64,000 bases of DNA from an uncultured Planctomycetaceae bacterium (GTDB taxonomy: Bacteria > Planctomycetota > UBA1135 > GCA-002686595), in contig CAYMYN010000005.1 of the NCBI GenBank assembly GCA_964394665.1, forward strand, positions 37,461-101,460, in the 5' to 3' direction. Below, piece by piece: positions 26,611 to 51,507 of the stretch. Within the stretch, counting starts at the first letter, position 1; each line of letters starts with the position of its first letter. Below the pieces are notes generated by a model, which did not search any database, was not told where the DNA came from, and saw nothing but the letters and a program-made list of their open reading frames with translations. The translations under genes and the position numbers were made by a program.

Positions 26611-26639
26611 GGCCCCGGGAGCGGCGTCGGACCGCCGCC

Positions 26640-27233: not shown

Positions 27234-27248
27234 TCCGCCGAGTCGATC

Positions 27249-36400: not shown

Positions 36401-36544
36401 AGGGCGGCGCAGGGCCGCCAGCCAGGTCTCCTGCAGCACCTCGTCCGCCTCGCCCTCGCCGACCAGGCGCCGGGCCAGGTCCCGGGCCCACGCGGAGTGG
36501 GCCAGCAGGGCTTCGATGGGGACGGGCGGGAGGGCGTCGCTCAT
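33491..36544 (-). CDS. ECF sigma factor fused to a TM segment and ~800-aa extracytoplasmic carboxypeptidase-regulatory-like repeat region (paralog of 20631-23771)
   Basis: N-terminal sigma regions 2 and 4 (VLQETWLAALRRPP...LLLRYFEGLTGAEIARRSGVPAGTVRWRLHSALAELR). Then, in-frame, MKTLVLTSALAGSLCLVLLGVRLL (TM) and repeats (GVRVRVAGAQ..., GRFELTLRAGGRYVVRAQV). 1017 aa uninterrupted. Confidence 0.7.
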   Translation of the reverse strand: MSDALPPVPIEALLAHSAWARDLARRLVGEGEADEVLQETWLAALRRPPRAGGDPRPWLGRVLGSAARQRARRRRRVEAREAAAARDEALPSAAELAARAESQGLLIEAVLALDEPLRETLLLRYFEGLTGAEIARRSGVPAGTVRWRLHSALAELRAHLERRKGGGRGGWCAALAPLLGPRAQLAGAGGLPIPILGALAMKTLVLTSALAGSLCLVLLGVRLLGGGERADAPAQDLAFLPLPAASGSAAVDAADDPAQGSLRTALVAREPEPAGEAGGSAAEPLARLRLRLVDGQGAPIGGARVDVSPGSIAQGTHTGADGRAELAVRPLPGPGHHTLSFRRAGFANDSLRVSARAGEPIDLGDVVLRAGGAAEGVVVDGRGEPVAGVRVRVAGAQRVLPGGSMRLSETTALGASEARTDELGRFRLEGLLAGNVSLSAESDDRMWSGGRDGVEIRPNHGTRGVRIVVTELEAERRIVGSVVDPEGVPVPHAPIFVRGKTLWRSSSSLAVADAQGNFRVRLQWTGTWDLTARDPHDRFAQVERRGVRGGTRGLVLRFEPPRHARLRVLAADGSPIEDWTGELRVEDAGASVERLVPGPLRLPTRPFTLLVVAPGFDQRELGPFDPGQLVDAQVLDCTLNPLPGVRGRVSEAGAPAADVEVGLHALLTTRATRGGFPIWIEPDPEVRARTDADGRFELTLRAGGRYVVRAQVAGRAPAELGPFELEPGVGLSGLELELGAGGSIEGRVEHADGRPAVGRVVAASRGDGQLRTARAGPDGRYGLANLTPGRWLVCPIDDRSPGGGNDLSVDGSRPPHAELPWNCEVFEGAVTRFDLAGERRAGRLSGHLEAEGVEREGWHVELVPLAVAGPATFQETRLDADGRFAFELEVPGTYLLDITCPRGLRLLDEIEADGGALEWRQRLPVGRLELTNVPAVEPGRVPFVVWEGSGTCFALVPLLPDGEGRAAPDPVPAGSLRVVRPPAPGERAALAGEDPRAWPSLERLELPEGGLLRARLP

Positions 36545-36704
36545 GGGTCTTCGACCCGTTCCATGCCGCGGGAGCCCGAAGCGTTGGCGTTTCCTCTCAC
36601 TTTCCGCCCCCCGCGGTCGGGCCCTGTTCCGGCCGCCCGGGGAACGGGCGCTCCGCCGACGGCCGCCGGACCCGATCCTACCCCGGGTGCCCCGGGCGCG
36701 GGGC

Positions 36705-37442
36705 CTACTCGAGGCGTGCGCCCTTGGCGGTGTAGAAGGCGAGCAGGTCCTCCCGGGCGGCGCGCGTGAACTTGCGCCAGACGCCGCCGGACCAGTCGCG
36801 GCCCGCGAGGCCTCGCTCGTCGTAGTGCTGGGCGGCTACGCGGTCGAAGGCGTCGATCTCGGCCAGCAGGGCGTCGTCGTCGAGGTAGCGCTCGCGCATC
36901 CACAGCGCGGCGAGCGGCAAGCGCGGGCGCCGAGCGGTCGGGATGGCGGGGTCGGGTGCGCCGGCGCACAGGCCGAAGAGCGGCCACACGCCCGCGGGCA
37001 ACTCGAGCAGGGCGTCGACCTCGATCAGGCGGTTGCGCAGGGCGCCGATGTAGCAGGTGCCGTAGCCCAGTGCCTCGAGGGCCAGGGTCAGATTCTGCGC
37101 GAAGAGACACGCGTCGACGACGGCCAGGAGGAAGGTCTCGAAGTTCGAGACGTAGCTCGCGCCGGCGCGCTCGGCCAGCAGGCGGTGACGGCGCGTGTCG
37201 CCGCAGACCACGAAGAACGCGCCGGCGGTCTCGACCTGGGTCTGGTCGGCGCACAGGTGCGCCAATCGCGAGCGCACGGCGGGCTCGCTGATCTGGATCA
37301 GGGAGTAGGCGTGGATCCAGCTCGACGTGGCTGCCTGGCGGGCGGCCGTGATCGCGTCGCGGAGCTGCTCTTCGGGGACCGGCTCGGGAAGGAAGGAGCG
37401 CACCGAGCGGTGGGCGGCCATGAGCTCCAACAGGGGGTGCAT
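36705..37442 (-). CDS. Oxygen-insensitive NAD(P)H nitroreductase (NfsA-like)
   Basis: N-terminus HRSVRSF, nitroreductase fold motifs. 245 aa. Confidence 0.75.
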   Translation of the reverse strand: MHPLLELMAAHRSVRSFLPEPVPEEQLRDAITAARQAATSSWIHAYSLIQISEPAVRSRLAHLCADQTQVETAGAFFVVCGDTRRHRLLAERAGASYVSNFETFLLAVVDACLFAQNLTLALEALGYGTCYIGALRNRLIEVDALLELPAGVWPLFGLCAGAPDPAIPTARRPRLPLAALWMRERYLDDDALLAEIDAFDRVAAQHYDERGLAGRDWSGGVWRKFTRAAREDLLAFYTAKGARLE

Positions 37443-37534: not shown

Positions 37535-40504
37535 ATGGTGGTGCCGCCCGATCCCGCCGGACCCGAAGCGCAGACGCGCTGGGCCCGCGTGCGAGCGCTG
37601 GTCGAGGCTGCGCTCGACGTGCCGGCCACCGAGCAGCGGGCCATGCTCGCCGGACTCGAGCGAGATCCGGAGCTGGTCGAGGAGGCGCTCGGGTTGCTCG
37701 GGGCGGGCGAGGGCCCCGATCCGCCGCCGATGCCGGCGGTCGCGGGGATGTGGGACGGGCCGCGATCGGAGGAGGACGAGGAAGCGCCGGCGCGCCTGGG
37801 TCCCTATCGCGTGCTCCAGCGCATCGGCGCGGGCGGGATGGGCACCGTGCACCTGGCGCTGCGCGACGATGGGGAGTTCGCCAAGCGCGTGGCGGTCAAG
37901 ATCGTCAAGCGCGGCATGGACACCGAGGAGGTGCTGCGGCGTTTCGAGCAAGAGCGTCAAGTGCTCGCCTCCCTCGACCACCCGGGCATCGCGCGCGTGC
38001 TCGACGGCGGTCGGTGCCCCGACGGGCGTCCGTACCTGGTGATGGAGCTGGTCGAGGGACTGCCCATCGATCAGTGGTGCGACCACGAACGCCTGGGCGT
38101 GCGCGAGCGCATCGAGCTGTTCATCCAGGTCTGCGACGCCGTGGCCGACGCCCATCGCAGCCTGGTGGTCCACCGCGACATCAAGCCCTCCAACGTGCTC
38201 GTGACGCGCGATGGTCGGCCCAAGCTGCTCGACTTCGGCATCGCCAAGGTGCTCGACGCTCGCCAGGGCTTCGCGACGATCGACTGGACGATTTCGCCAC
38301 TCAAGCTCCTGACTCCCGCTTACGCCAGCCCCGAGCAGGTGCGCGGGGACCCGGTGACCACCGCCAGCGACGTGTACTCGCTGGGTGTCGTGCTCTACCT
38401 GCTCCTGACGGGCCGCACGCCGTTGCGCTTCGAGACCGGTTCGCCGGCCGAGATCGAGCGCGTCGTGTGCCGGGTCGAGCCCGAACGGCCGAGCACGAGC
38501 CTGATCACGACCGCGCGCCGCGTCGGCGTGGCTCCGGAGGCGCGCGATGCGGCGACGGGCGACCAGACGCGCGAGCTGGCGACGCTCCGCTCCACGACCC
38601 CCAAGTCGCTGCGCCGCGCGCTGAGCGGGGACCTCGACACGATCGTCCTGGAAGCGCTGCGCAAGGAGCCCCGACGGCGCTATGCCTCGGCCGCGGAGCT
38701 CGCCGCCGACCTGCGTCGTCACCTGCGCGGGCTGCCGGTGCTGGCGCGGCCCGACAGCCTCGCGTACCGCAGCTCGCGTTTCGTGCGGCGCAATCGCCTG
38801 GCGGTCGCCGCCGCCGCGCTGGTGCTCGGCTCGCTCGTGGGCGGCCTGGCGTTGGCGCGGACGCAGTACGCGCGCGCCGAGCGGGCGCGCTTGGCCCTCG
38901 CCGAGCAGCTCGAGATCGACCGGGCGCGGGCGCTCGAGCTGGAGCGCCTGGCGGAGGACCTCGGGGAACAACGCGCCCTGGCCGTGGACGCGCGCTCGGA
39001 GGCCGAGCGCCGACTGGCGGAGGTCGAGCGGCTCAACGAGGAACTCGAGCATCAAAGGGGCCTCGCGCTCCAGCGCCTGGCGGACGTGCGCAGCTTCGCC
39101 ACGGACCTGGCTTTCCGCGTCCACGGAGAGCTGGTCCCCATCGAGAACACCGAGAAGGCGCGCGCGCTGGTCGTCGGCCTGGGACTGGGCTTCCTCGACC
39201 GTCTGTCGCGCGACGTGGGCGACGACCCCTCGTTCCAACGCCTGTTGGTCGGTTCGCACCTGCGCATGGTGGAGGTGCAGCTCCAGGAGCCCGGGCCCCA
39301 GGACGAGCGCCAGCGCGCGGCGCTCGTCAGCGCGGAGCGCGCGGTGGCGCTCGGGGAGGCGCTCCACGCGACCGACTCGGCATCGATCCCCAACCGGTTC
39401 GCGCTCGCCTCGGCGTGCTTCCATCAGGGGCGTCTGTTGTCCTGGCTCGGCCGACGTGCCGAAGCCCGCGAAGCCCTCGAGCGGGCGCGGGAGCTGGGCG
39501 AAGCCGACGGGGGAGCGCTCCAGACGCACAACGGGCTCGCGATCTACCTCGGATCGGCCCTCGGCGAGCTGGCCGCGCTCCTGGCGGACTCGGGCGACGT
39601 GAGCGGAGCGCTCGAGCGTGTCGACGAGGCCATCCGTCAGATGGAGGCCCTGGCCGAGCGCATGCCCAGCACCGCCGAGACCCTCGCGGGGCTCGTGCGC
39701 CAGCGCGCCCAACTGCTCGCTGCCCGTGGCGAGCTCGAACACAGCGTTGCGGAGCTCGAGCGCGCGGCCGAGCTGCTCGCCGAGCTCCTGCGCTCCGATC
39801 CGACGCACCACATTCGCCGCCAGAACCTGCGCGCGATGAACGAGGAGCTGGCCGCGCTGTTGCCGCGGGTCGGGCGCGATGGGGACGCGTTGGAGCTCGT
39901 CGAGAGTCTGCTCGACTCGGCCGAGCAACGGCTCGCCACCGAGGGCCGAGGCCGCGGCACGCTGGTGGACCAGTTCACGGCCCTGCGGCTGCGGGCGGAC
40001 CTGCTCGGGCGTGCGCGTCGCTGGGACGAGGCCCACGGCGCCGCACGGGTCCTCCTGGCGGTGGCGCGCGAGCTACGCGACCTCGATCCGAGCGGGTTCG
40101 GGGCCCGCGGCGACCTCGGGCTGACCCTCGCGCGCACGGCGGAGGCCGCGCTGGCCGTGGGCGCGCTCGAGGATGCCTCCCACGCGATCCACGAGGCGCA
40201 GCGTCTGTTCGAGGGCCTTCGGCGCGAGGAGTCCGAGTCACCGCGCGTCCGCCAGGGGCTGCTGGTGATCCACGCGCTGCGGGCCGAGGTGGCCGAGACG
40301 TTGGCCGGTGCCGCCGACGGTCCAGCGCGCCGCGACCAGTGGCGGAACGCGCTGGCGGCCTGGAACGAAGCCGAGGACTTGATGCGCTTCCACGCGCCGG
40401 TCGATCGTTGGGGCGCGCCCGATCCCTCCTTCGCGCGCCGCGTCGCCGAGGGCCGGCAGCGCTGCGCCGCGGCCCTCTCGGACTCCGAGGCCAAGGAGCG
40501 TTGA
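37535..40504 (+). CDS. Ser/Thr protein kinase with an N-terminal ECF-sigma-associated domain and a C-terminal TM plus TPR-like helical region
   Basis: Hanks kinase motifs (GAGGMGTVHLA, VAVK, HRDIKPSNVL, DFG, SPE). N-terminal RWARVRALVEAALDVP...ERDPELVEEALGLL. TM (LAVAAAALVLGSLVGGLALA) then a long helical C-terminus. 989 aa. Confidence 0.85.
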   Translation: MVVPPDPAGPEAQTRWARVRALVEAALDVPATEQRAMLAGLERDPELVEEALGLLGAGEGPDPPPMPAVAGMWDGPRSEEDEEAPARLGPYRVLQRIGAGGMGTVHLALRDDGEFAKRVAVKIVKRGMDTEEVLRRFEQERQVLASLDHPGIARVLDGGRCPDGRPYLVMELVEGLPIDQWCDHERLGVRERIELFIQVCDAVADAHRSLVVHRDIKPSNVLVTRDGRPKLLDFGIAKVLDARQGFATIDWTISPLKLLTPAYASPEQVRGDPVTTASDVYSLGVVLYLLLTGRTPLRFETGSPAEIERVVCRVEPERPSTSLITTARRVGVAPEARDAATGDQTRELATLRSTTPKSLRRALSGDLDTIVLEALRKEPRRRYASAAELAADLRRHLRGLPVLARPDSLAYRSSRFVRRNRLAVAAAALVLGSLVGGLALARTQYARAERARLALAEQLEIDRARALELERLAEDLGEQRALAVDARSEAERRLAEVERLNEELEHQRGLALQRLADVRSFATDLAFRVHGELVPIENTEKARALVVGLGLGFLDRLSRDVGDDPSFQRLLVGSHLRMVEVQLQEPGPQDERQRAALVSAERAVALGEALHATDSASIPNRFALASACFHQGRLLSWLGRRAEAREALERARELGEADGGALQTHNGLAIYLGSALGELAALLADSGDVSGALERVDEAIRQMEALAERMPSTAETLAGLVRQRAQLLAARGELEHSVAELERAAELLAELLRSDPTHHIRRQNLRAMNEELAALLPRVGRDGDALELVESLLDSAEQRLATEGRGRGTLVDQFTALRLRADLLGRARRWDEAHGAARVLLAVARELRDLDPSGFGARGDLGLTLARTAEAALAVGALEDASHAIHEAQRLFEGLRREESESPRVRQGLLVIHALRAEVAETLAGAADGPARRDQWRNALAAWNEAEDLMRFHAPVDRWGAPDPSFARRVAEGRQRCAAALSDSEAKER

Positions 40505-40513
40505 GCGCGGCGC

Positions 40514-40771
40514 TCAGCGCCGATCCCGCGGCTCCCGGTCCTCCGCGCCCTCCCCGGGGCCGGATGGGCGCAACCAGGGCAGCCCCAATCCGGTGGGAGG
40601 CTCGAGGGTGTCCTCGGCCCCCTCCTCCAGCCGCAGCAGGGCGCTCAGCTCGCGCGCGAGCTCGGGATCCTGTCGCTCGAGATCTCGCCAGTGAGCGTGC
40701 CGTTCCTCCGGCTCCAGCCACAGCAACGCCTCGAGCGCGGGACGAACGCGCATCCAGTGCCCATCCTCCAT
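40514..40771 (-). CDS. Orphan 85-aa ORF resembling only the N-terminal (sigma-associated) domain of the ECF-linked Ser/Thr kinases; possible standalone anti-sigma-like peptide or kinase gene remnant
   Basis: GGAGG ribosome-binding site 6 nt upstream of ATG 40771, 43 nt downstream of the ECF sigma gene. Protein MEDGHWMRVRPALEALLWLEPEERHAHWRDLERQDPELARELSALLRLEEG parallels the kinase N-termini (RWARVRALVEAALDVPATEQRAMLAGLERDPELVEEALGLL at 37535; RHRRVKELFLAACDLGVDERSAFLAREC at 51504). Confidence 0.45.
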   Translation of the reverse strand: MEDGHWMRVRPALEALLWLEPEERHAHWRDLERQDPELARELSALLRLEEGAEDTLEPPTGLGLPWLRPSGPGEGAEDREPRDRR

Positions 40772-40814
40772 CGAAGCCTCCAGGTAGGAAGGCGAGGAAT
40801 CGGCGCGTCGTCCC

Positions 40815-41393
40815 TCACGATTCCGCGCCGTCGTCGGAGCCCGGACCGAGCTCGCGTCGCAGCCACAAGCGCGCCACGCGCCAGTGTCGCTCGACCGTCG
40901 CGGTCGAGATCTCGAGCACCCTCGCGGTCTCCTCGATCGACAAGCCGGCGAAGAAACGCAGCTCGACCAGCCGCGCGAGGGGCTCGTCCACGGCGTGCAG
41001 GCGCTCGAGGGCGTCGTGCACGGCGAGCACGTCGAGGTGGCGCTCCTCGTAGGCGGCGAGAACCCCGTCGAGGGCCGCCCGATCCCGTCCCTGGCCGCGC
41101 TTGTCGGTGCGCCGCGCGCGGGCGTGGTCGACGAGCACGTTGCGCATGGCGCGCGCCGCCACGCGCACGAAGTGGGCGCGGCTCTCCCAGCGCACCTGGG
41201 AGCCCACCAGACGCAGGTAGGCCTCGTGCACGAGCGCCGTGGGTTGCAGGGTGTGGTCGCCGCGCTCGCCGTCCATCGCGCGCCCGGCCTGGCGGCGCAG
41301 CTCGGCGTAGACCAGCGGCAGGAGCTCCTGGGCCGCGGCGCCATCCCCGGCCGACATGCGGTCCAGCAGGCGCGTGGCCTCGCTCGGTTCCAT
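40815..41393 (-). CDS. ECF-like sigma factor of the Ser/Thr-kinase-associated type
   Basis: MEPSEATRLLDRMSAGDGAAAQELLPLVYAELRRQAGRAMDGERGDHTLQPTALVHEAYLRL ... VELRFFAGLSIEETARVLEISTATVERHWRVARLWL. The annotated 970-aa extension of this frame is rejected because it runs antisense through the signal-peptide gene at 41622. Confidence 0.8.
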   Translation of the reverse strand: MEPSEATRLLDRMSAGDGAAAQELLPLVYAELRRQAGRAMDGERGDHTLQPTALVHEAYLRLVGSQVRWESRAHFVRVAARAMRNVLVDHARARRTDKRGQGRDRAALDGVLAAYEERHLDVLAVHDALERLHAVDEPLARLVELRFFAGLSIEETARVLEISTATVERHWRVARLWLRRELGPGSDDGAES

Positions 41394-41621
41394 GGGCCGA
41401 TTGTCGCATCCGCTGGCGGGGATGCGAAGCCCAGCGGCGTCGCCGAGCTCCAACGGCCTCCCGCGCCCCCGCGGGCCGGGCCACGTCGGTGTTCCGGAGA
41501 ACTTTCGCCCGCTGCGTGATGGGCAGCGCGGCCCGATCTCGCCGACCCCTGGCGGAGCGTGGGTTCCAAGGCACGGCCCGCTCCCGACCGAGACGATCCC
41601 GTGCGACGAGGAGATGACGAC

Positions 41622-43847
41622 ATGATGTGGAAGAAGACGGCTACGACCCTGTTCCTGGGCGGCCTGGCGTTCGCCGGCACCGCCCGCGATCCCCAGAACC
41701 CGTTCCCCGCGCCGAGCAACGATCCGGCCGCCGACGCGCGTTGGTCCACCTTCTGGTGGGCGGAGTTCGACGGCGACGGCGCCCCCGACGTGCTGGTCCT
41801 GCACCCCAACGCTCCCCTGCGCCTCTACCGCGGAACCGGCCGCGGCGAGCTCGCCGAGGTGACCCAGACCGCGGGCCTGGCGGGCGTGCTCGGCGCGCGG
41901 CAGGCGCTGTGGTTCGACTACGACGGCGATGGGCGCACCGATCTGTTCCTGACCGTCCCGGGCGGGCGCAGTCGCCTGCTGCGCAACGTCGAGGGCCAGA
42001 GCTTCGAGGACGTCGGCGCGACCAGCGGACTGGCGCTCGAGTCGAGGGTGCTGCGCGCCGAGGTCCTCGACTACGACGGCGATGGTGCGCCCGACCTGCT
42101 GTTCGTCGGGCCCGACCGCGAACGCCTGTTCCGCAACCTGGGCGCCGGTTCCTTCGAGGAACTCGTCCTGGAGCTCCCCGAGCGCGCGCCGATCGTGCAC
42201 ATGGACGTGCTGGCTCCCGCTCGCCGCGCGCCGCTGCCGCAAGACGAGCAACCCGAGCTCGACGCGCGCGTGGCGCCGCGCCCCGGCAACGCGGCCTCCG
42301 CGCCGGCGGGTTCCTCGCAGCTCTTCGGTCCCACGACGGGGCCGACCGTGACCGCAACGCCCCTCGGTCCCCAGGTGCCGGCCTCCGCGCAGCTCGTGTG
42401 CGCGGGCTCGGTCGAGGACTTCGTCAACCCCGGCACCTGCATGAACGCCTCCAGCGTGCCGACGCTGGGCATGCTGTTCCCGATCAGTCCGGAGTGGTTC
42501 GTGGACCCCTCCGGGCGCGTGGGCCTGGGCACGACCTCGCCCAGCGAGCGCTTGCACGTGGCCGGACGGATCCTGGCGTCGGACCAGATCCGAACCACGC
42601 TCCCGACCGGCACCGCGCCCTTCCAGGTCGCGTCCACCACGTTGGTGACCAACCTGAACGCCGATCTGCTCGACGGCCTCCATGCGAACGCCTTCCGCCT
42701 CACGGCGAACCCGATCGGGACCGCCGACCTGGCCAACGCCGCGGTGACCGCGGCCAAGCTGGCGAGCGGCGCGGTGAACAGCGCCGCGATCCTCGACGGA
42801 TCGATCGTGAACGCGGACGTCTCGGCCTCGGCGGCCGTCGCGGGGACCAAGATCGTGCCGAGCTTCGGCGCGCAGAACGTCGTCACGACCGGCCGCGGAG
42901 GCTTCGGGACGACCGGTCCGAACTCGACCCTGCACGTCAACGCCCCCGCGGGCGACGACGCCTTCCGGGTGCAGAGCGCGGGAGCGACGAAGTTGCTCGT
43001 GGCCCAAGGCGGAGGCGTCTCGATCGGCACGAACCTCCTGACGCCGCCGCCGAACGGGCTCTACGTCCACGGCAACCTCGGCGTCGGCAACACCGCGCCG
43101 ACCTTCAAGCTCGACGTCACCGGAGACGTGAACGCGAGCGGCACCATTCGCCAGGGCGGCTCGGTCGTGGTCGGGGCGACGGGCCTGTTCTTCGGCAAGG
43201 ACACCGGTTGGCCGAACCTCGCCTACAACCTCGGCACGTCGGGGCTGGGCATGGGCAGCCCGTCGGCCAACAACCTGGCCTTCCAGACCCTCGGGCTCGA
43301 GCGCCTGCGGATCACGAACTCGGGACGCGTCGGCATCGGCGTGTCGACTCCCGGGTTCCGTCTGGACCTGCCCAACATCGCCAGCGTCGACGGTCAGGGG
43401 CGCGCGAACGCCTGGACCACCTACTCCTCGCGGCGTTGGAAGGAGAACGTGCAGACGATCCCGGGCGCCCTCGAGCTCGTGCTGCGCCTGCGCGGCGTGA
43501 CCTTCGACTGGACCGCGGAGAGCGGTGGCGGCAAGGACGACGTCGGGTTCATCGCCGAGGAGGTCGGCGCCGTGGTGCCCCAGCTCGTCGCGTGGGAAGA
43601 GGACGGCGTGAATGCCAAGAGCCTCAAGTACGACCGCATCTCGGCCCTGACCGTCGAGGCCATCAAGAGCCAGCAGGTGCTGATCGAGGAGCTGCGGGGC
43701 GAGCTCGAGCTCGAGCGGGAGCGGCACCTGGCCGAGATGGCGCTCGCCGAAGGCCGCGTGGCCGAGCTCGAGCGCCAGGTGGCCGAGCAGGGCCAGCGCC
43801 TCGAGCGCGTGATCGCGGCCCTCGCGGCGGTGATCGAGGCGCGCTGA
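41622..43847 (+). CDS. Secreted FG-GAP/VCBS-repeat protein with a tail-fibre-like domain and a C-terminal peptidase-S74 intramolecular chaperone domain
   Basis: GAGGAG ribosome-binding site 8 nt upstream. MMWKKTATTLFLGGLAFAGTA signal peptide. DYDGDGRTDL / DYDGDGAPDL calcium-binding-like repeats. GLGTTSPSERLHVAGRI...ANAAVTAAKLASGAVNSAAILDGSIVNADV is a tail-fibre motif. C-terminal RRWKENVQTIPGALELVLRLRGVTFDW...DVGFIAEEVGAVVPQLV...KSLKYDRISALTVEAIKSQQ is S74/endosialidase-chaperone-like. Coiled-coil tail. Confidence 0.7.
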   Translation: MMWKKTATTLFLGGLAFAGTARDPQNPFPAPSNDPAADARWSTFWWAEFDGDGAPDVLVLHPNAPLRLYRGTGRGELAEVTQTAGLAGVLGARQALWFDYDGDGRTDLFLTVPGGRSRLLRNVEGQSFEDVGATSGLALESRVLRAEVLDYDGDGAPDLLFVGPDRERLFRNLGAGSFEELVLELPERAPIVHMDVLAPARRAPLPQDEQPELDARVAPRPGNAASAPAGSSQLFGPTTGPTVTATPLGPQVPASAQLVCAGSVEDFVNPGTCMNASSVPTLGMLFPISPEWFVDPSGRVGLGTTSPSERLHVAGRILASDQIRTTLPTGTAPFQVASTTLVTNLNADLLDGLHANAFRLTANPIGTADLANAAVTAAKLASGAVNSAAILDGSIVNADVSASAAVAGTKIVPSFGAQNVVTTGRGGFGTTGPNSTLHVNAPAGDDAFRVQSAGATKLLVAQGGGVSIGTNLLTPPPNGLYVHGNLGVGNTAPTFKLDVTGDVNASGTIRQGGSVVVGATGLFFGKDTGWPNLAYNLGTSGLGMGSPSANNLAFQTLGLERLRITNSGRVGIGVSTPGFRLDLPNIASVDGQGRANAWTTYSSRRWKENVQTIPGALELVLRLRGVTFDWTAESGGGKDDVGFIAEEVGAVVPQLVAWEEDGVNAKSLKYDRISALTVEAIKSQQVLIEELRGELELERERHLAEMALAEGRVAELERQVAEQGQRLERVIAALAAVIEAR

Positions 43848-43877
43848 ACCGAGGATCTCGGTTCGGAGCCCGAGGAC

Positions 43878-43908
43878 GGAGCGCGGAGGGCTCGGCTCTC
43901 CGCGCTCC
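43878..43908. terminator. Bidirectional terminator-like hairpin (11-bp stem GGAGCGCGGAG / CTCCGCGCTCC, 9-nt loop) between convergent genes
   Basis: Perfect inverted repeat read from sequence, in the 70-bp gap between the tail-fibre-like gene (+) and gnd (-). Confidence 0.5.
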
Positions 43909-43917
43909 GCTCGCCCC

Positions 43918-45336
43918 TCAGCCCTGCGAACGCGGCCACTCGGTGTGCTGCGCGACGCCCGGTTCGTCCGCGCGTTCGTAGGTGTGGCTGCCGAAGTAGT
44001 CGCGTTGGGCTTGGATCAGGGCCGCGCTGCCGCGGGCGGTGGTCAGCGTGTCGAACCAGGCGAGGGACGTGGCCAGGCCCGGGACGGGCAGGCCCGCGCG
44101 CGCGGCCGCGGCCACGACGCGGCGCCAAGCGGGAAGGCGCTGGCCGAGGCGCGCGACGAAGGCCGGGGCGAGGACCAGGGACTCGAGCTCCGGATCGGCG
44201 CGGAAGGCGGAGGCGACGTCGCCCAGGAAACGCGCGCGGATGATGCAGCCGGCGGTCCAGATGCGCGCCATCTCCGCCAGGTCGGTGCCGTAGCCGTAGG
44301 CCCGGTCGGCCGCGCGCAGGAGCGCGAAGCCCTGCGTGTAGCTCGCGATCTTGGCCGCGTAGAGCGCGGCTTCCAGGTCGGCCGGCGTGAGGTCGCCCAG
44401 CTCCGCCGAGGGCCGCTCGAAGCGCGGCTCGGCGCGTTCGCGCAGCGCTTTCTGCGCGCTCAGGGCGCGCGCGTCGACCGCCGCCGCGAGCGTCGGGACG
44501 ACCACCCCCAGCTCGAGGGCGCTGGCCACCGTCCAGCGCCCCGTGCCCTTCTGCTGCGCGCTGTCCAGGATCGCGTCCACGAGCAGGCCCTCGCCCCGCG
44601 GGTCGCGCGCGCGGAAGATGTCGGCCGTGATCGCCACGAGGAAGCTGTCGAGCTCGCCTCGGTTCCACTCCGCGAAGACGTCGGCCACGGCGGCGCCACC
44701 GAGGCCCAGGCCGCGACGCAGGAGCAACGCCACCTCGGCGATGAGCTGCATGTCCCCGTACTCGATGCCGTTGTGCACCATCTTCACGAAGTGCCCGGCC
44801 GAGCCGCGGCCGCAGTACGCGACGCAGGGGCCGTGCTCGCCCGTGGCGGCGATCGCCACGAGCAGCGGGTGCAGCAGCTCCCAGGCTTGCCAGTCCCCAC
44901 CGGGCATGATCGAAGGCCCGAGCAGCGCGCCCTCGGCTCCGCCCGAGACCCCCATGCCGACGAAGCGCCAGGGCCGGGAGCGCGCGCGTTCCTCGCGCCG
45001 ATCGGTGTCGCGGAAGTGGCTGTTGCCCGCGTCCACCACGACGTCGTCGCGCTCGAGGAAGGGATCGAGCCCGTCCAGCACCGCGTCGACCGGCGCTCCC
45101 GCGGGCACCATCAGCACGATGCGGCGCGGCCGGGCCAGCTTGGCCACGAGTTCCTTCAGGCTCGGCGCCGCGTCGAATCCCGCCTCGGGGTGCGCGGCGC
45201 ACAGCTCGGCGGTGACCTCCGGACTGCGATTGTGGACGGCGACCGCGAATCCGCGCCGCGCGAGGTTGCGCGCGAGGTTCGCGCCCATCACGCCCAGGCC
45301 GACGACGGCCACGTCGTTGTCGCGTCGTGCGTTCAT
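43918..45336 (-). CDS. gnd: 6-phosphogluconate dehydrogenase (decarboxylating)
   Basis: MNARRDNDVAVVGLGVMGANLARN Rossmann N-terminus, GHFVKMVHNGIEYGDMQLIAE signature. 472 aa. The start overlaps the pgl stop by 4 nt. Confidence 0.9.
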   Translation of the reverse strand: MNARRDNDVAVVGLGVMGANLARNLARRGFAVAVHNRSPEVTAELCAAHPEAGFDAAPSLKELVAKLARPRRIVLMVPAGAPVDAVLDGLDPFLERDDVVVDAGNSHFRDTDRREERARSRPWRFVGMGVSGGAEGALLGPSIMPGGDWQAWELLHPLLVAIAATGEHGPCVAYCGRGSAGHFVKMVHNGIEYGDMQLIAEVALLLRRGLGLGGAAVADVFAEWNRGELDSFLVAITADIFRARDPRGEGLLVDAILDSAQQKGTGRWTVASALELGVVVPTLAAAVDARALSAQKALRERAEPRFERPSAELGDLTPADLEAALYAAKIASYTQGFALLRAADRAYGYGTDLAEMARIWTAGCIIRARFLGDVASAFRADPELESLVLAPAFVARLGQRLPAWRRVVAAAARAGLPVPGLATSLAWFDTLTTARGSAALIQAQRDYFGSHTYERADEPGVAQHTEWPRSQG

Positions 45337-46019
45337 GCGATCGATCCGGGGTGCCTGTCGGTGACGACGACCAGGCCGGGGAGGCCCGCGGCGGGGTGCT
45401 CGGGATCGCCCGCCAAGAGGCGCGCGAGGGCCGCGCGTTTGTCGACACCGACGGCGACGAGCAGGCAGCGCCGCGCCGTGTCCAGGATGGCGCGCGTGAG
45501 GGTGATGCGCTCGGCGGGCGGCTTGGGCGCGTCGGGGACGTGGGCCACCGGGCCCGCGTAGCGCGGGTGTCCGGGGAACAGGGACGCGATGTGCCCATCG
45601 CCCCCCATGCCGAGCAACACCACGTCGAGCGCGCCCGCGAAATCGGCGGCGAGCGCCTCGCGCACGCGGACCAGGGCGCTCTCCATGGAGTCCTCCTCGA
45701 CCCACAGCCGCAGGACGCTGCCCGGTTCCCCGCGGTCGAACAGCCCCGCGCGGCCGGCGTCGCCCGCGTTGGAGTCGGCGTGGGCGAGCGGGACCCGACG
45801 TTCGTCCACGAAGGTCAGCCGCAGGCGGCGCCAGAGCCCGTCGTCGAGCCGCTCGCGGGCCCGTACGGCGACCGCCAGCGCGAACCCGCCGGGGATCGCG
45901 AGCCGCGCCCCCGCGGCGCCCCGCGCGCGATCGGCCTCCTCGAGGGCCGCGCACAGCAGCTCCGCCGCCCGCGCGACCGGATGGTCGTCGACGATCAGCT
46001 CGGGAAGGCGATCAGCCAC
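45333..46019 (-). CDS. pgl: 6-phosphogluconolactonase
   Basis: LAIPGG...VDERRVP and LLGMGGDGHIASLFPG motifs. 228 aa. Overlaps the zwf stop by 8 nt. Confidence 0.85.
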   Translation of the reverse strand: MADRLPELIVDDHPVARAAELLCAALEEADRARGAAGARLAIPGGFALAVAVRARERLDDGLWRRLRLTFVDERRVPLAHADSNAGDAGRAGLFDRGEPGSVLRLWVEEDSMESALVRVREALAADFAGALDVVLLGMGGDGHIASLFPGHPRYAGPVAHVPDAPKPPAERITLTRAILDTARRCLLVAVGVDKRAALARLLAGDPEHPAAGLPGLVVVTDRHPGSIA

Positions 46020-47523
46020 GCGACCAACCTCCCTCGCAACCGAAGAAGAGCTCCTGCGCCTGGGGCGGGCCCCAGCTCCCGGCGGGATAGGCGCGCAGCG
46101 GCGCTTCGCTCCACACGCTGCGCACCTCGTCGGCGTAGCGCCAGGCGGCCTCGATCTCGTCGCTGCGCAGGAAGAGCGTGGGATCGCCCTGCAGCGCGTC
46201 GAGCAACAGGCGTTCGTAGCCCGAGGCGCCGTTGGGACCGAACCGGTCGCGGTAGTCGAAGGAGAGCTCCGCGGGCGCCATGAGCATGTCGTTCCCGGGT
46301 CGCTTGACGCCGAAGGAGAGATGGATCGCCTCGCGCGGCTGGATGCTGAGCGTCAGCACGTTGGGCCGGATCTGGCACAGGTTTCCGGAGCGCAGGGCGC
46401 GCCGGAACTCGCGCTCGGTCATGTCCCCCGGGCGGTTGAAGAGTTGCACGGGCGGTGTGCGGAACTGGATCTGGACCTCGGTGAAGCGCTCGGGCAGACG
46501 TTTGCCGTGGCGCAGCAGGAAGGGCACGCCGTGCCAGCGCCAGTTGTCGATCTCGGCCCGCAGCGCGACGAAGGTCTCGGCCTGCGAGCCGGGCGGCACG
46601 CCCTCCTCCTGGAGGTAGCCGCGCACCGCGCTCCCGTCCACGACGCCTTCCGAGTACCGCGCCCGGACGCAGGATCGTTCGGGCTCGAGCGGATCGGGCA
46701 GGGCCAGGGAGCGCAGCACCTGGACCTTCTGATCGCGCACGGCCTCGGGCTCGAGGCTCACCGGCGGCTCCATCGCGATCAGGGCCAGGATCTGCAGCAT
46801 GTGGTTCTGCAGCACGTCGCGCAGCGCGCCGGTCGAGTCGTAGGAGCGGGCGCGGCCGCGCTCCACACCGATCGACTCGGCCACGGTGATCTGCACCAGC
46901 TCGACGTGGCGCCGATTCCAGAGCGGCTCGAAGATCGCGTTGTGGAAGCGCAGGCCGAGCAGGTTCTGGACGGTCTCCTTCCCGAGGTAATGGTCGATGC
47001 GATAGATCTGGTCCTCGCGCAGGAGCCCGTGCAGCTCGGAGTTGAGCGCGCGGGCGCTCGCCAGGTCCTGCCCGAAGGGTTTTTCGATCACCACGCGCCG
47101 GAAGGCTGGCTGGGGACCGACGCGGCGCTCGACGATGCCGGCTTCGGCGAGGGCGCGCAGGGCCGGCGCGAACAGCTCGGGGGCCAGGGCCAGGTAGACG
47201 AGTCGTCCAGCCTGCGCCCCGCCCGGCAAGGCGTCGAGCCGCGCGGCGAGCCGGCGCACGCTGGCGGGGTCCGAGACGTCCGCGGCCTGATAGTGGATGT
47301 CGGGGGCGAGCTCGTCGAAGCTCGGCCTCCTCGTCTCGTCGAGCAACTCGCGCAGGTTCGCGCGGAACCCATCCTCCGCCAGCTCCCGACGGGCCACGCC
47401 CAGCACCGAGGTCGCTTCGGGCAGTTGCCCTCCAGCCCGCAGATTGGCGAGCGCGGGCACGAGCTTGCGCCCGGTCAGATCGCCGCTGGCCCCCAGGATC
47501 ACGATCTGCGTCGCGCGCGACAT
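46012..47523 (-). CDS. zwf: Glucose-6-phosphate 1-dehydrogenase
   Basis: N-terminus IVILGASGDLTGRKL, EKPFGQDL, RIDHYLGKE signature. 503 aa. Confidence 0.9.
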   Translation of the reverse strand: MSRATQIVILGASGDLTGRKLVPALANLRAGGQLPEATSVLGVARRELAEDGFRANLRELLDETRRPSFDELAPDIHYQAADVSDPASVRRLAARLDALPGGAQAGRLVYLALAPELFAPALRALAEAGIVERRVGPQPAFRRVVIEKPFGQDLASARALNSELHGLLREDQIYRIDHYLGKETVQNLLGLRFHNAIFEPLWNRRHVELVQITVAESIGVERGRARSYDSTGALRDVLQNHMLQILALIAMEPPVSLEPEAVRDQKVQVLRSLALPDPLEPERSCVRARYSEGVVDGSAVRGYLQEEGVPPGSQAETFVALRAEIDNWRWHGVPFLLRHGKRLPERFTEVQIQFRTPPVQLFNRPGDMTEREFRRALRSGNLCQIRPNVLTLSIQPREAIHLSFGVKRPGNDMLMAPAELSFDYRDRFGPNGASGYERLLLDALQGDPTLFLRSDEIEAAWRYADEVRSVWSEAPLRAYPAGSWGPPQAQELFFGCEGGWSRG

Positions 47524-50834: not shown

Positions 50835-50913
50835 CGAGTGCGGGGCGCGGGAGCCTGGGGGCGACCCTCGGCCAGGCTGATAGACTCTCCCCGCACTCGC
50901 GGGTGTCTTCGGA

Positions 50914-51507
50914 ATGGCCGATCCCTCCGCTCCCGACCCCTTCGCCGACGTGACCCAGGCGCTCCACGGCCTGCGAGCCGGAGGCCCGCAGGTGTCGAGC
51001 GAACTCCTGGCGGCCCTCGTCGCCGAGCTGCGCTCGATCGCGCGCGGGTACCTGGGCGCGCAGGGAGCGAATCACACCCTGCAGCCGACGGCCCTCGTCA
51101 ACGAGGCCTTCCTCAAGCTCTTCGGCAGCGCGTCCCTGCAGAACGTGCACGATCGCGGGCACTTCTTCGCCCTGGCGGCGCGCGTCATGCGCCAGATTCT
51201 CGTCGACCACGCGCGCCAGCGCCGGGCGGCCAAGCGCGATGGAGGCGGCGTTCAGGTGACCCTGGGCGAGGACCTCGGCGTGGATGTCGTGGGGGACGGG
51301 GAGTTGCTCGACGTCGACGCGGCCCTGTCGGAGCTGGCGGAGCTCGACCCGCGCCAGGCGCGCGTCGTGGAGCTGCGCTTCTTCGCCGGGCTCGAGGTGG
51401 GCGAGGTCGCGGCGGCGCTGGGGCTCTCCGTCTCGACCGTCGAGCGCGAATGGCGCGCGGCCCGCGCGTGGCTCGGTCGGCGCATGACGGACCGGCGTTC
51501 GCCATGA
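50914..51507 (+). CDS. ECF-like sigma factor of the Ser/Thr-kinase-associated type
   Basis: SSELLAALVAELRSIARGYLGAQGANHTLQPTALVNEAFLKL ... VELRFFAGLEVGEVAAALGLSVSTVEREWRAARAWL. The stop overlaps the kinase start (ATGA). Confidence 0.8.
   Translation: MADPSAPDPFADVTQALHGLRAGGPQVSSELLAALVAELRSIARGYLGAQGANHTLQPTALVNEAFLKLFGSASLQNVHDRGHFFALAARVMRQILVDHARQRRAAKRDGGGVQVTLGEDLGVDVVGDGELLDVDAALSELAELDPRQARVVELRFFAGLEVGEVAAALGLSVSTVEREWRAARAWLGRRMTDRRSP

What the first reader, a model, noticed from the sequence alone, without database searches (positions are those of the whole stretch)
41622..43847. Chromosomal FG-GAP/VCBS-repeat protein with phage-tail-fibre domain and S74 intramolecular-chaperone C-terminus, divergent from an ECF sigma
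The C-terminal ~150 aa match the self-cleaving chaperone domain of endosialidases and tail fibres, and the middle region carries tail-fibre-like glycine-rich motifs. No other phage gene (capsid, terminase, integrase) is within 20 kb in either direction. Proteins of this kind occur in predatory and social bacteria as surface fibres or adhesins. The Ca-binding FG-GAP repeats and signal peptide fit a secreted trimeric fibre. It shares a 228-bp divergent promoter region with the ECF sigma at 41393.
Basis: partly seen in the sequence, partly recalled or inferred. Interest (0 to 1): 0.55.

Follow-up and report, generated by a model that had tools for sequence, protein, structure and literature searches.

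The report
Sigma-linked bacterial surface fibre of phage type
A chromosomal gene encodes a secreted three-stranded fibre built from phage tail-fibre parts, with a self-removing folding domain and a calcium-binding foot, and it recurs in related bacteria beside a kinase-controlled sigma factor that probably switches it on.

Summary
ORF 41622..43847 (+, 741 aa) has these parts:
- a signal peptide;
- a three-blade FG-GAP domain (Pfam E 1e-23);
- a Pro-rich linker;
- a Cys-loop neck;
- a phage-tail-fibre-like shaft (PHROG tail-fibre hits to 7e-24);
- a C-terminal Peptidase_S74 intramolecular chaperone (E 3.7e-13) with an intact Ser602/Lys607 dyad.

No phage gene was found anywhere in the 64-kb window. 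The gene's codon usage matches its neighbours'.

The closest known class is the Bdellovibrio MAT surface fibres (S74 and non-S74 tips). This family replaces the MAT N-terminal domain with FG-GAP blades. In 50 relatives, the named ones all Planctomycetota MAGs, the FG-GAP and neck end is constant. The C-terminus varies: S74 in 18, Peptidase_G2 IMC in 5, collagen in 3, other in 24.

The new finding is a recurrent module. In 10 of 18 distinct loci the fibre gene lies beside, or within two or three genes of, a PF07638/TIGR02999 ECF sigma. That sigma carries the ECF43-like QPTA phospho-threonine motif, and a transmembrane Hanks kinase lies in the same locus; the flanking genes differ.

Best reading: a self-processing trimeric surface fibre expressed under a kinase-activated ECF sigma. 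Regulation, trimerisation and cleavage are inferred, not shown.

Verdict: new variant of a known kind, of moderate interest.

The parts
41622..43847 (+). Fibre gene (741 aa plus stop): signal peptide, FG-GAP, linker, neck, shaft, S74 IMC
   Evidence: ORF and GC3 0.94. Pfam FG-GAP_3 and Peptidase_S74. PHROG tail-fibre families. An identical protein, P0001, is in the public collection.
41622..41684 (+). Signal peptide (MMWKKTATTLFLGGLAFA|GT), aa 1-21; cleavage site approximate
   Evidence: Read from the sequence. All family members examined start with a comparable basic-then-hydrophobic N-terminus 25-60 aa before the first FG-GAP loop. No predictor was run.
41742..42191 (+). Three-blade FG-GAP partial beta-propeller, aa 41-190, with loops EFDGDGAPD (48), DYDGDGRTD (99), DYDGDGAPD (150)
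   Evidence: Pfam. AF2 pLDDT is about 90-96 with 3 x 4 strands. Foldseek hits CRTAC1 9etn (E 1.8e-6), PVL lectin and TcB. Loop motifs.
42192..42389 (+). Pro-rich low-complexity linker, aa 191-256
   Evidence: 18% Pro. pLDDT below 50 over aa 194-257. Not conserved in alignment A1.
42390..42512 (+). Family-signature neck, aa 257-297: C260-x12-C273, then ASSVPTLGMLFPIS
   Evidence: C260, C273, G283 and P287 are invariant in 50 relatives. The motif is listed for all members. A disulphide is inferred.
42513..43424 (+). Tail-fibre-like shaft, aa 298-601, with four G-x-[VLF]-G-x-G-x-x-x-P-x-x-x-L loop motifs (aa 298, ~426, 484, 568)
   Evidence: PHROG tail-fibre hits. Viral-contig fibres are 33-64% identical over segments. 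Motif positions. Weak PDB hits to Bdellovibrio MAT fibres 8ond, 8ojn and 8oml.
43425..43847 (+). Peptidase_S74 intramolecular chaperone, aa 602-741 plus stop. Ser602 codon is 43425-43427, Lys607 codon is 43440-43442. C-terminal coiled-coil helix spans aa 672-740.
   Evidence: Pfam E 3.7e-13. phmmer aligns S602/K607 to S93/K98 of S16 gp37, 6f45. The family profile hits MYRF ICA 7dc3 at 4e-19 and 6f45 at 1e-16. S, R and K are invariant. The helix is in the AF2 models.
41394..41621 (.). 228-bp divergent intergenic region. Conserved TGATGG box at 41517-41522, inside the block TGATGGGnnnCGCnnCCnGAnnnCGCCG. Shine-Dalgarno GAGGAG at 41608-41613.
   Evidence: Sequence. Alignment with the orthologous region of L002. 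TGATGG lies at -97 to -132 in 6 of 24 family upstream regions, against 0.8 expected. No sigma-70-type promoter was found. The promoter assignment is tentative.
40815..41393 (-). ECF sigma factor (192 aa) of the kinase-linked type, with sigma2.2 motif HTLQPTALVHEAYLRL
   Evidence: Sigma70_ECF PF07638 E 5.6e-54. TIGR02999 E 2.8e-60. The QPTA motif is conserved in sigmas of related loci. Compared with the ECF43 QTTA/STTA phospho-Thr motif (PMC8999054, PMC13147305).
40514..40771 (-). Small ORF (85 aa) downstream of the sigma, related to the pre-kinase N-terminal segment of the kinase
   Evidence: Homologues follow the sigma in L002 and L040. 46% identity over 46 aa to kinase aa 16-60. phmmer cross-hits. 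No Pfam family.
37535..40504 (+). Receptor-type Hanks Ser/Thr kinase (989 aa): N-terminal helical segment, kinase domain aa 91-382, one TM helix at about aa 420-443, and a ~545-aa extracytoplasmic coiled-coil/TPR-like region
   Evidence: Pkinase E 8.7e-39 and weak TPR_2. Hydrophobic segment. The C-terminal sensor region is conserved in the kinases of L002, L040 and L044.

Best explanation
The gene encodes a Sec-exported protein that most likely assembles into a homotrimeric fibre of phage tail-fibre ancestry. The fibre now serves as a cellular surface fibre or adhesin, not as part of a virion.

Folding is expected to start at the C-terminal S74 intramolecular chaperone (aa 602-741). This domain trimerises, templates the upstream beta-structured shaft, and then cuts itself off at Ser602, with Lys607 as the base. 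That exposes the distal tip.

The mature fibre would consist of three three-blade calcium-binding FG-GAP modules, each on a flexible linker of about 65 residues. A Cys-loop neck and a shaft of about 300 residues per chain complete it.

The FG-GAP and neck end is constant across the family while the C-terminal end is swapped (S74, G2-type chaperone, collagen, others). The FG-GAP end is therefore probably the cell-proximal foot and the C-terminal end the specificity tip.

The gene belongs to a recurrent module with a phosphorylation-type ECF sigma and a transmembrane Hanks kinase. The most likely logic is that the kinase senses an extracytoplasmic cue and phosphorylates the sigma on the Thr of QPTA. 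The sigma then drives the fibre gene from the shared divergent region.

Shown: domain identities, the catalytic motif, the absence of phage context, and the recurrent gene neighbourhood. Inferred: trimerisation, cleavage, surface location, orientation, and regulation.
For: Domain calls: FG-GAP_3, Peptidase_S74 and tail-fibre PHROGs.

Catalytic motif: S602/K607 align to the catalytic SDxxxK motif of S16 gp37 and are invariant in 12 relatives. 17 of the 50 aligned relatives carry SxxRxK, all of them S74-positive. The family profile hits MYRF ICA (4e-19), S16 gp37 (1e-16) and Bdellovibrio MAT fibres.

Structure: AF2 gives a confident three-blade FG-GAP domain, a disordered linker and a long C-terminal helix. 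Foldseek matches Ca-binding and lectin propellers.

Family variation: FG-GAP is constant in 50 of 50 relatives, with variable tips (S74 18, G2 IMC 5, collagen 3).

No phage context: no phage genes in 64 kb and host-like GC3.

Module: a sigma is adjacent or within two to three genes in the window, L002, L004, L034, L037, L038, L040, L043, L044 and L048, with different flanking genes and varied gene order. L048 was fetched as a test after the module was noticed, and it met the prediction. The kinase sensor domain is co-conserved in L002, L040 and L044 despite rearrangement.

Sigma type: the sigma lacks the acidic sigma2.2 motif and has QPTA, as in kinase-activated ECF43 sigmas (PMC8999054, PMC13147305).

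Precedent: Bdellovibrio MAT fibres are surface-exposed, and Bd3182 self-cleaves at its S74 serine (PMC10769870).
Against: - No trimer model could be built. The monomer model of the shaft has low confidence. Foldseek on the chaperone-only model put 3gw6 first, but at a non-significant E of 0.17.
- No anchor (TM helix, lipobox or sorting signal) is visible, so cell attachment is unproven.
- Position 603 is Ser rather than the usual Asp of SDxxxK.
- The sigma is absent from the available context of 8 of 18 loci, including two tandem arrays (L003, L049), so the link is frequent but not obligatory.
- The promoter candidate (TGATGG box) was found post hoc. Several other hexamers show comparable enrichment. 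It occurs only in the window's subclade.
- Taxonomy is unsettled. G6PD relatives split between Planctomycetota and Myxococcota.
Confidence: 0.6

Rival explanations
1. The fibre is an input to the signalling module rather than its output. It would act as an extracellular antenna whose conserved FG-GAP feet dock on the kinase's large extracytoplasmic coiled-coil/TPR domain. Ligand binding or mechanical load on the tip would then activate the kinase and the sigma.
For: The conserved end of the fibre (FG-GAP and neck) and the kinase sensor domain are co-retained across rearranged loci. No other anchor is visible in the fibre. In several loci the kinase directly flanks the fibre gene (L004, L034, L044, L048).
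Against: No interaction was tested. Arrays of 3-6 fibre paralogues occur with only one or two kinases, or none. The precedents in ECF43 systems are sigma/kinase pairs placed next to the genes they regulate (PMC8999054).
Confidence: 0.12
2. A released, soluble or matrix-forming trimeric lectin. The FG-GAP blades would be the ligand-binding end (glycan binding, as in FG-GAP-type fungal lectins). The fibre would cross-link polysaccharide or cells rather than project from the producer's surface.
For: The FG-GAP domain resembles the PVL and related GlcNAc-binding propeller lectins and Ca-binding CRTAC1. Three feet on flexible linkers would give avidity. No membrane or wall anchor was seen.
Against: Only three blades are present, so the closed-propeller binding pockets of those lectins are not reproduced. 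The variable end of the family is the C-terminus, which is where phage and MAT fibres carry specificity (PMC10769870).
Confidence: 0.15
3. The neighbourhood is coincidental. The fibre gene is an independently regulated surface protein that happens to lie beside one of the many ECF sigma/kinase pairs of such genomes.
For: These genomes are rich in such pairs. The window itself has a second PF07638-like sigma with a kinase at 50884-54131 and a further ECF/anti-sigma pair at 26511-27773. 8 of 18 loci show no sigma in the sequence available.
Against: The sigma directly flanks a fibre gene in 6 loci and lies within two to three genes in 4 more, while the other flanking genes differ. With about one such sigma per 30 genes (my rough estimate from this window), chance adjacency in 6 of 18 loci has a probability below 1e-3.
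Confidence: 0.1
4. A leftover tail-fibre gene of a decayed prophage, tailocin or contractile injection system.
For: The shaft and chaperone are homologous to bona fide phage fibres.
Against: There are no phage, tailocin or injection-system genes in 64 kb. The only tRNA call lies 20 kb away, inside a coding ORF. Codon usage is host-like. A signal peptide and FG-GAP domain replace a virion-attachment domain. The same architecture and neighbourhood recur in many genomes.
Confidence: 0.03

Closest known systems
Bdellovibrio bacteriovorus MAT (mosaic adhesive trimeric) fibres, S74 subgroup, e.g. Bd3182 (Caulton et al. 2024, PMC10769870)
   Same: - A chromosomal gene that is not a prophage gene.
- A signal peptide and a phage-fibre-like shaft with recurring V-G-x-x-x-P-x-x-x-L-type loop motifs.
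- A C-terminal S74 chaperone with the Ser/Lys motif.
- A family split into S74 and non-S74 tips, with a constant N-terminal end.
- Weak direct sequence hits to 8ond, 8ojn and 8oml.
   Different: - The N-terminal domain here is a three-blade FG-GAP module on a Pro-rich linker, followed by a Cys-loop neck. MATs have a ~130-aa beta-rich domain instead.
- This protein is shorter (741 aa against about 1,000).
- The host lineage differs (relatives named Planctomycetota MAGs).
- It is linked to an ECF sigma/kinase pair; the word 'sigma' does not occur in the main text of the MAT paper.
Phage tail fibres and tailspikes with C-terminal intramolecular chaperone (K1F endosialidase 3GW6, T5 pb1 4UW8, S16 gp37 6F45)
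   Same: An S74 domain with the catalytic Ser-Lys motif and a C-terminal helix. Shaft segments are shared with fibres on IMG/VR viral contigs.
   Different: No virion-attachment N-terminus and no phage neighbours. The protein is exported by a signal peptide, and position +1 after the Ser is Ser rather than Asp.
Myelin regulatory factor (MYRF) ICA domain, 7DC3
   Same: This is the best profile hit in the PDB (E 4e-19), and it covers the loop motif, the Ser/Lys site and the helix.
   Different: MYRF is a eukaryotic membrane-bound transcription factor in which cleavage frees a DNA-binding domain. Here there is no TM segment after the chaperone and no DNA-binding domain.
Kinase-activated ECF43-type sigma factors (EcfP/PknT of Vibrio parahaemolyticus, EcfK/PknS of Xanthomonas citri)
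   Same: The sigma lacks the acidic sigma2.2 motif and has Q-x-T-A with a Thr at the phospho-site position. It is paired with a transmembrane Hanks kinase, and the pair sits next to a presumptive target gene (PMC8999054, PMC13147305).
   Different: The group assignment was not run against the ECF classification. The sigma matches PF07638/TIGR02999, the presumptive target is a fibre rather than a T6SS or polymyxin-resistance genes, and an extra small ORF related to the kinase N-terminus follows the sigma.

Membership tests
Peptidase_S74 / C-terminal intramolecular chaperone domain | Profile match above the curated threshold | tested here: met
   PF13884 scores 50 bits against a cut-off of 22, E 3.7e-13, over aa 602-656. 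The family profile hits MYRF ICA at 4e-19 and S16 gp37 at 1e-16.
Peptidase_S74 / C-terminal intramolecular chaperone domain | Catalytic Ser and Lys five residues apart (S-D-x-x-x-K) | tested here: met
   S602-S-R-R-W-K607 aligns to S93-D-R-R-I-K98 of 6f45. S, R and K are invariant in 12 relatives. Asp at +1 is replaced by Ser in the window protein.
Peptidase_S74 / C-terminal intramolecular chaperone domain | Fold of the chaperone (intertwined trimer with C-terminal helical bundle) | tested here: inconclusive
   The monomer AF2 model has a mean pLDDT of 72. Foldseek puts 3gw6 first, but at E 0.17 and probability 0.69. A trimer could not be modelled.
Peptidase_S74 / C-terminal intramolecular chaperone domain | Trimerisation-dependent autoproteolysis that releases the domain | not testable with these tools
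   Needs expression of the wild type and an S602A mutant.
Bdellovibrio MAT fibre family | Signal peptide followed by the conserved ~130-aa beta-rich N-terminal domain | tested here: not met
   A signal peptide is present, but the N-terminal domain is FG-GAP_3. I therefore do not file the protein as a MAT family member, only as MAT-like.
Bdellovibrio MAT fibre family | Trimeric beta-helical shaft with capping-loop motif V-G-G/N-pi-x-x-P-x-x-x-L | tested here: inconclusive
   Four similar motifs (G-x-[VLF]-G-x-G-x-x-x-P-x-x-x-L) differ in spacing by one residue. Profile hits to 8ond, 8ojn and 8oml fall over this motif. The shaft structure is not resolved.
Bdellovibrio MAT fibre family | Family-level tip swapping (S74 and non-S74 termini on a constant base) | tested here: met
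   Of 50 relatives, 18 have S74, 5 Peptidase_G2 IMC, 3 collagen and 24 other termini, and all have FG-GAP_3.
FG-GAP / VCBS beta-propeller proteins | FG-GAP repeat profile matches with Ca-type D-x-D-x-D-G loops | tested here: met
   PF13517 E 1.1e-23 and PF01839 E 1.7e-6. Loops at aa 48, 99 and 150.
FG-GAP / VCBS beta-propeller proteins | Closed seven-blade propeller in one chain | tested here: not met
   Only three blades, aa 41-190 (12 strands), are present in the confident part of the AF2 model.
Phage or prophage tail fibre (virion component) | Located among phage structural or morphogenesis genes | tested here: not met
   No phage family was found in the 32 ORFs scanned with Pfam or in the 8 poorly annotated ORFs scanned with PHROGs.
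Kinase-activated ECF sigma (ECF43-like) | Sigma2.2 without the acidic DAED-type motif and with a Thr in Q/S-x-T-A | tested here: met
   HTLQPTALVHEAYLRL is found in the window sigma and is conserved in the module sigmas. The motif definition comes from PMC8999054 and PMC13147305.
Kinase-activated ECF sigma (ECF43-like) | Adjacent Hanks-type Ser/Thr kinase and no anti-sigma factor | tested here: met
   The Pkinase gene 37535..40504 lies beside the sigma operon. No zf-HC2 or other anti-sigma domain is adjacent. The small ORF 40514..40771 has no Pfam hit, so its role is open.
Kinase-activated ECF sigma (ECF43-like) | Phosphorylation of the sigma by the kinase, and assignment to ECF group 43 by the ECF classifier | not testable with these tools
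   No ECF-group HMM library or experiment was available. The sigma is assigned only to PF07638/TIGR02999.

The most novel reading that the evidence does not exclude
The sigma/kinase/fibre trio is a dedicated surface-sensing device. The trimeric fibre would be both the product and the extracellular probe of the kinase. Its FG-GAP feet would dock on the kinase ectodomain, so that contact with a particle, prey, polymer or phage at the tip is relayed to sigma phosphorylation. In Planctomycetota-like bacteria, such fibres might also account for some of the surface fibres whose protein identity is, to my knowledge, not established.
Probability: 0.1. Interest if true: 0.8.

Novelty: new variant of a known kind. 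Interest (0 to 1): 0.5.

Why it matters
Bacterial use of phage-type, self-processing trimeric fibres as their own surface adhesins was demonstrated in Bdellovibrio in 2024 (PMC10769870). This locus shows the same building principle in a different lineage, with a different, calcium-binding base. The building principle is a constant base, a swappable tip and a removable chaperone.

The fibre gene is also tied to a phosphorylation-controlled ECF sigma. The ECF papers consulted here describe experimentally studied targets only for ECF43 sigmas of Vibrio and Xanthomonas. For the kinase-linked groups represented by Planctomycetes proteins, they give only a proposed activation by phosphorylation (PMC8999054, PMC7826278). 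A recurrent, physically adjacent candidate target gives a concrete, testable output for one such pair.

The locus also offers a simple reporter system, consisting of the divergent 228-bp region, and a compact S74 substrate for studying chaperone-assisted fibre folding.

Tried and rejected
- **Exact-sequence contig look-ups.** Look-ups of the window protein, its identical database entry P0001 and its same-contig paralogue P0006 found nothing. The paralogue's neighbourhood is therefore unknown.
- **Genome-contig scan.** It returned only an unrelated FG-GAP protein from a Terriglobus MAG, so the source genome could not be named.
- **Metagenome scan.** Alignments A1 and A2 were too diverse for it. 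The narrower A3 gave 14 mostly short contigs.
- **Family size from the neck profile.** The search against 1.84 billion representatives was swamped by the G-x-VGIGT-x-x-P-x-x-x-L repeat. It gave 177,114 hits, led by giant proteins with 30-80 copies, so it gives no family size.
- **Foldseek.** On the full-length model it reported only the FG-GAP domain. On the chaperone-only monomer it was not significant.
- **Upstream ORF.** An ORF starting at the ATG inside the TGATGG box was considered and rejected. Its peptide is not conserved between the window and L002, and its frame differs (read by eye).
- **-35/-10 assignment around TGATGG.** This could not be made convincingly. Other hexamers are similarly enriched.
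- **Standard signals.** No sigma-70 promoter or intrinsic terminator was found in 40400-44100.
- **Taxonomy from G6PD.** The result was ambiguous between Planctomycetota and Myxococcota.
- **Literature.** Searches for S74 with FG-GAP, for intramolecular chaperones in Planctomycetes, and for PF07638/TIGR02999 found no description of this family or module. The library is incomplete: Jogler 2012 could not be read.
Full report
**1. The observation**

The window has about 72% G+C, so long spurious ORFs abound. I therefore selected coding frames by third-position G+C.

The frame holding the finding is open from 41520 to the stop codon that ends at 43847, with GC3 0.93-0.94. The ATG at 41622 is preceded by GAGGAG at 41608-41613. 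It opens a typical signal peptide, MMWKKTATTLFLGGLAFA. The same block, CGTGCGACGAGGAGAnGACGAC, precedes the start of the 66%-identical orthologue in locus L002.

Pfam finds FG-GAP_3 in three stretches (E 1.1e-23), FG-GAP (1.7e-6) and Peptidase_S74 at aa 602-656 (E 3.7e-13, 50 bits against a threshold of 22). PHROGs finds 32 families, almost all annotated as tail fibre or baseplate wedge, over aa 290-700 (best 6.9e-24).

The divergent gene 40815..41393 (-) is an ECF sigma: PF07638 E 5.6e-54, TIGR02999 E 2.8e-60. The spacer is 228 bp.

**2. Surroundings**

I scanned 32 GC3-supported ORFs of the window with Pfam. I scanned the 8 ORFs with no or only sub-threshold Pfam hits with PHROGs.

The ORFs with confident Pfam matches are cellular genes:
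- CotH kinase, a PLP enzyme, TetR, and an RND efflux set;
- ribBA, an ECF/zf-HC2 pair, a PilM-like gene, and a Band_7 protein;
- a sigma fused to CarboxypepD_reg repeats, and the kinase and sigma next to the finding;
- gnd, pgl and zwf, convergent with the fibre gene;
- a histidine kinase, a second sigma with a kinase-FGE protein, a radical SAM enzyme, a heptosyltransferase, and purF.

No capsid, terminase, portal, integrase, tail or baseplate gene appears. The single tRNA call lies at 63804-63893, inside the purF-like ORF. The fibre gene's composition is uniform along its length and matches its neighbours. It is a resident chromosomal gene.

**3. Anatomy of the protein**

- **aa 1-21: signal peptide**, read from the sequence. 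Every relative inspected has one.
- **aa 41-190: three FG-GAP blades.** Each has four strands, with pLDDT about 90-96 in the AlphaFold2 model built on 50 relatives. The calcium-type loops are EFDGDGAPD, DYDGDGRTD and DYDGDGAPD. Foldseek matches parts of closed propellers: CRTAC1 (E 1.8e-6), the PVL GlcNAc lectins and TcB. phmmer also hits TcB. Only three blades are present, so this is not a closed propeller in one chain.
- **aa 191-256: linker.** It is 18% proline, unconserved, and predicted disordered.
- **aa 257-297: neck.** Two Cys (C260, C273) are invariant in all 50 aligned relatives, followed by ASSVPTLGMLFPIS. A similar SSSVPTNGVYLP segment occurs in fibres on IMG/VR viral contigs.
- **aa 298-601: shaft.** It has four copies of G-x-[VLF]-G-x-G-x-x-x-P-x-x-x-L and stretches such as AVAGTKIVPSFGAQNVVTTG that are nearly identical in viral-contig fibres ending in S74. 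As expected for a monomer prediction of a trimeric fibre, this part has low confidence.
- **aa 602-741: S74 domain.** HMMER aligns Y-S602-S-R-R-W-K607 with S-S93-D-R-R-I-K98 of the phage S16 gp37 chaperone, 6f45. In an alignment of twelve family C-termini, the Ser, the Arg and the Lys are invariant, as is the downstream G-x-I-A-x-E-V...P...V block. 17 of the 50 aligned relatives carry SxxRxK, all of them among the 18 that match S74.

A profile of these C-termini finds the MYRF ICA domain (7dc3, 4e-19), S16 gp37 (1e-16) and another tail fibre (8jov, 4e-9). Through the loop motif just before the Ser, it also finds three Bdellovibrio fibre entries (8ond, 8ojn, 8oml).

A chaperone-only model has a long terminal helix. 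It ranks the K1F endosialidase chaperone 3gw6 first in the PDB, but without significance (E 0.17). The membership call therefore rests on sequence, not on fold.

**4. The family**

A search of 5.8 billion proteins returns an identical entry on a 251,608-bp NCBI contig, plus orthologues at 66% and 59% identity. It also returns a long series of proteins sharing the N-terminal half.

In 50 aligned relatives, FG-GAP_3 is universal. S74 is present in 18, the Peptidase_G2-type chaperone in 5, and collagen repeats in 3. The rest end in regions without a Pfam match.

The base is therefore constant and the tip is exchanged. The named members are all Planctomycetota or Planctomycetes MAGs.

The window's own taxonomy is not settled. 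Its G6PD is 65-70% identical to proteins of Engelhardtia mirabilis (Planctomycetota) and to proteins of Myxococcota and "Deltaproteobacteria" MAGs.

**5. The recurrent module**

The orthologue in L002 has the same layout: kinase, a small ORF and sigma on the opposite strand, then the fibre gene divergent from the sigma. The other flanks differ.

More distant members (31-41% identity) show these arrangements:

| Locus | Arrangement |
|---|---|
| L004 | sigma, kinase, fibre, fibre in one direction; four more paralogues, a second kinase and a second sigma nearby |
| L040 | sigma divergent from the fibre; kinase 6 kb away |
| L043 | two kinases, then sigma divergent from the fibre |
| L044 | sigma divergent from the fibre, kinase directly downstream |
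| L034 | sigma, kinase, fibre |
| L037 | fibre, sigma |
| L038 | three fibre genes, two kinases, sigma |

L034, L037 and L038 came from an independent metagenome scan. I annotated them with my own phmmer searches.

Having stated the expectation, I fetched three further loci. L048 (collagen-tipped) shows sigma, kinase, fibre. L047 is cut at the contig end. L049 is an array of three to four family genes with no sigma in the 8 kb upstream.

In total, 10 of 18 distinct loci carry the sigma beside the fibre gene or within two to three genes. In 6 of these it directly flanks the fibre gene. In most of the other 8 loci the contig or locus ends within a few kb.

This window holds roughly one such sigma per 30 genes. 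That is my rough estimate, based on 2 in 64 kb. On that basis, chance adjacency in 6 of 18 loci has a probability below 1e-3.

The kinase's extracytoplasmic region is also conserved among the kinases of the window, L002, L040 and L044, although their positions in the locus differ. The association is frequent and survives rearrangement, but it is not universal.

**6. The partners**

- **The sigma.** Its sigma2.2 region carries HTLQPTALVHEAYLRL, and this is conserved in the module sigmas. It lacks the acidic DAED-type motif and has Q-P-T-A. In EcfP the corresponding Thr of STTA is phosphorylated by PknT, and in EcfK the corresponding T51 of QATE is one of the PknS phosphosites (PMC8999054, PMC13147305).
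- **The kinase (989 aa).** It has a cytoplasmic Hanks domain (aa 91-382), one hydrophobic helix (about aa 420-443), and some 545 extracytoplasmic residues with coiled-coil and TPR-like character.
- **The small ORF.** An 85-aa ORF (40514..40771, -) follows the sigma in the window, and homologues follow it in L002 and L040. It resembles the helical segment that precedes the kinase domain: 46% identity over 46 aa. It has no Pfam match and its role is open.

**7. How it most likely works**

The following rests on established knowledge of S74 domains: Schulz et al. 2010, as cited in PMC10769870, and the Bd3182 S782A experiment in that paper.

1. After Sec export, the three C-terminal domains associate.
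2. They template folding of the shaft.
3. Each then cleaves at its Ser, leaving a stable trimer with a newly exposed tip.

The constant FG-GAP and neck end and the variable C-terminal end parallel the MAT fibres, whose invariant N-terminal domain is proposed to sit on the producer's surface (PMC10769870). I therefore place the FG-GAP feet at the cell-proximal end. This is an inference, because no anchor motif is visible.

For expression, the simplest model is the ECF43 logic: cue, then kinase, then phospho-sigma, then the adjacent target gene.

The 228-bp spacer contains no sigma-70-like promoter. It does contain a block conserved with L002, TGATGGGnnnCGCnnCCnGAnnnCGCCG. The TGATGG hexamer recurs at -97 to -132 in 6 of 24 family upstream regions, against 0.8 expected.

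I treat this only as a candidate promoter element. It was found post hoc, comparable enrichments exist for other hexamers, and it is confined to the window's subclade.

**8. Rivals**

- **Prophage or tailocin remnant:** effectively excluded (sections 2 and 4).
- **Chance adjacency:** unlikely (section 5).
- **Fibre as an input to the kinase rather than its output:** not excluded.
- **FG-GAP as the ligand-binding end of a released lectin-like cross-linker:** not excluded.

Both open readings are listed with tests.

**9. Comparison and novelty**

The protein works like a Bdellovibrio S74-type MAT fibre and like phage fibres with intramolecular chaperones.

It passes the sequence-level tests for the S74 family. 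It fails the MAT family's defining N-terminal domain, so I call it MAT-like rather than a member.

I found no paper describing FG-GAP-based S74 fibres or their link to kinase-type ECF sigmas. The library is incomplete, and one key paper (Jogler et al. 2012) was not available.

I rate it a new variant of a known kind. Interest is moderate (0.5). The protein class is no longer surprising after 2024. The recurrent sigma/kinase/fibre module is a concrete and testable lead, both for the targets of kinase-linked ECF sigmas and for surface fibres in these bacteria.

Noticed in passing
window 40514-40771 (-): An 85-aa ORF lies 44 nt downstream of the ECF sigma. Homologues sit in the same position in L002 (8832-9071) and L040 (8836-9036). 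It is 46% identical over 46 aa to the N-terminal pre-kinase segment of the adjacent Ser/Thr kinase and has no Pfam family. It may be a stand-alone sigma-docking or anti-sigma-like piece.
   Followed up: partly
window 50884-54131 (+): A second PF07638-like ECF sigma (also with HTLQPTALV) is followed by a protein with Pkinase and a C-terminal FGE-sulfatase domain. The same pairing occurs in L043 (15882-19036), there next to an FG-GAP protein.
   Followed up: no
window 33491-36835 (-): A single stop-free 1114-aa frame holds sigma-70 regions 2 and 4 (aa 112-255) followed by five CarboxypepD_reg domains. This would be an ECF sigma with a very large C-terminal extension, if it is one gene.
   Followed up: no
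window 5661-11084 (+): One stop-free frame of 1807 aa contains both an AcrB-type RND transporter (ACR_tran) and an outer-membrane factor (OEP) domain. This suggests a fused pump/channel gene or a missed stop codon.
   Followed up: no
window 11171-17539 (+): A 2122-aa ORF with coding-like GC3 (0.93) has no Pfam or PHROG match at all.
   Followed up: no
fibre repeat, e.g. window 42513-42554, 43071-43112, 43323-43364: The G-x-VGIGT-x-x-P-x-x-x-L-x-V loop motif is extremely widespread. A 74-position profile containing it hit 177,114 of 1.84 billion representative proteins, led by giant proteins of 4,000-8,000 aa with 30-80 copies.
   Followed up: partly
L003 1-13420; L049 8001-19273; L004 1-22268: Some genomes carry tandem arrays of three to six FG-GAP-fibre paralogues, either all S74-tipped (L003) or mixed. 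This suggests diversification of tips by duplication.
   Followed up: partly
window 63804-63893 (-): ARAGORN calls a 90-nt tRNA-Met on the strand opposite the purF-like ORF (62383-63999). This is likely a false positive.
   Followed up: no
window 46012-47523 (-): The best named relatives of the G6PD are split between Planctomycetota (Engelhardtia mirabilis, 65%) and Myxococcota or 'Deltaproteobacteria' MAGs (65-70%). The source organism's phylum is not settled by this marker.
   Followed up: partly
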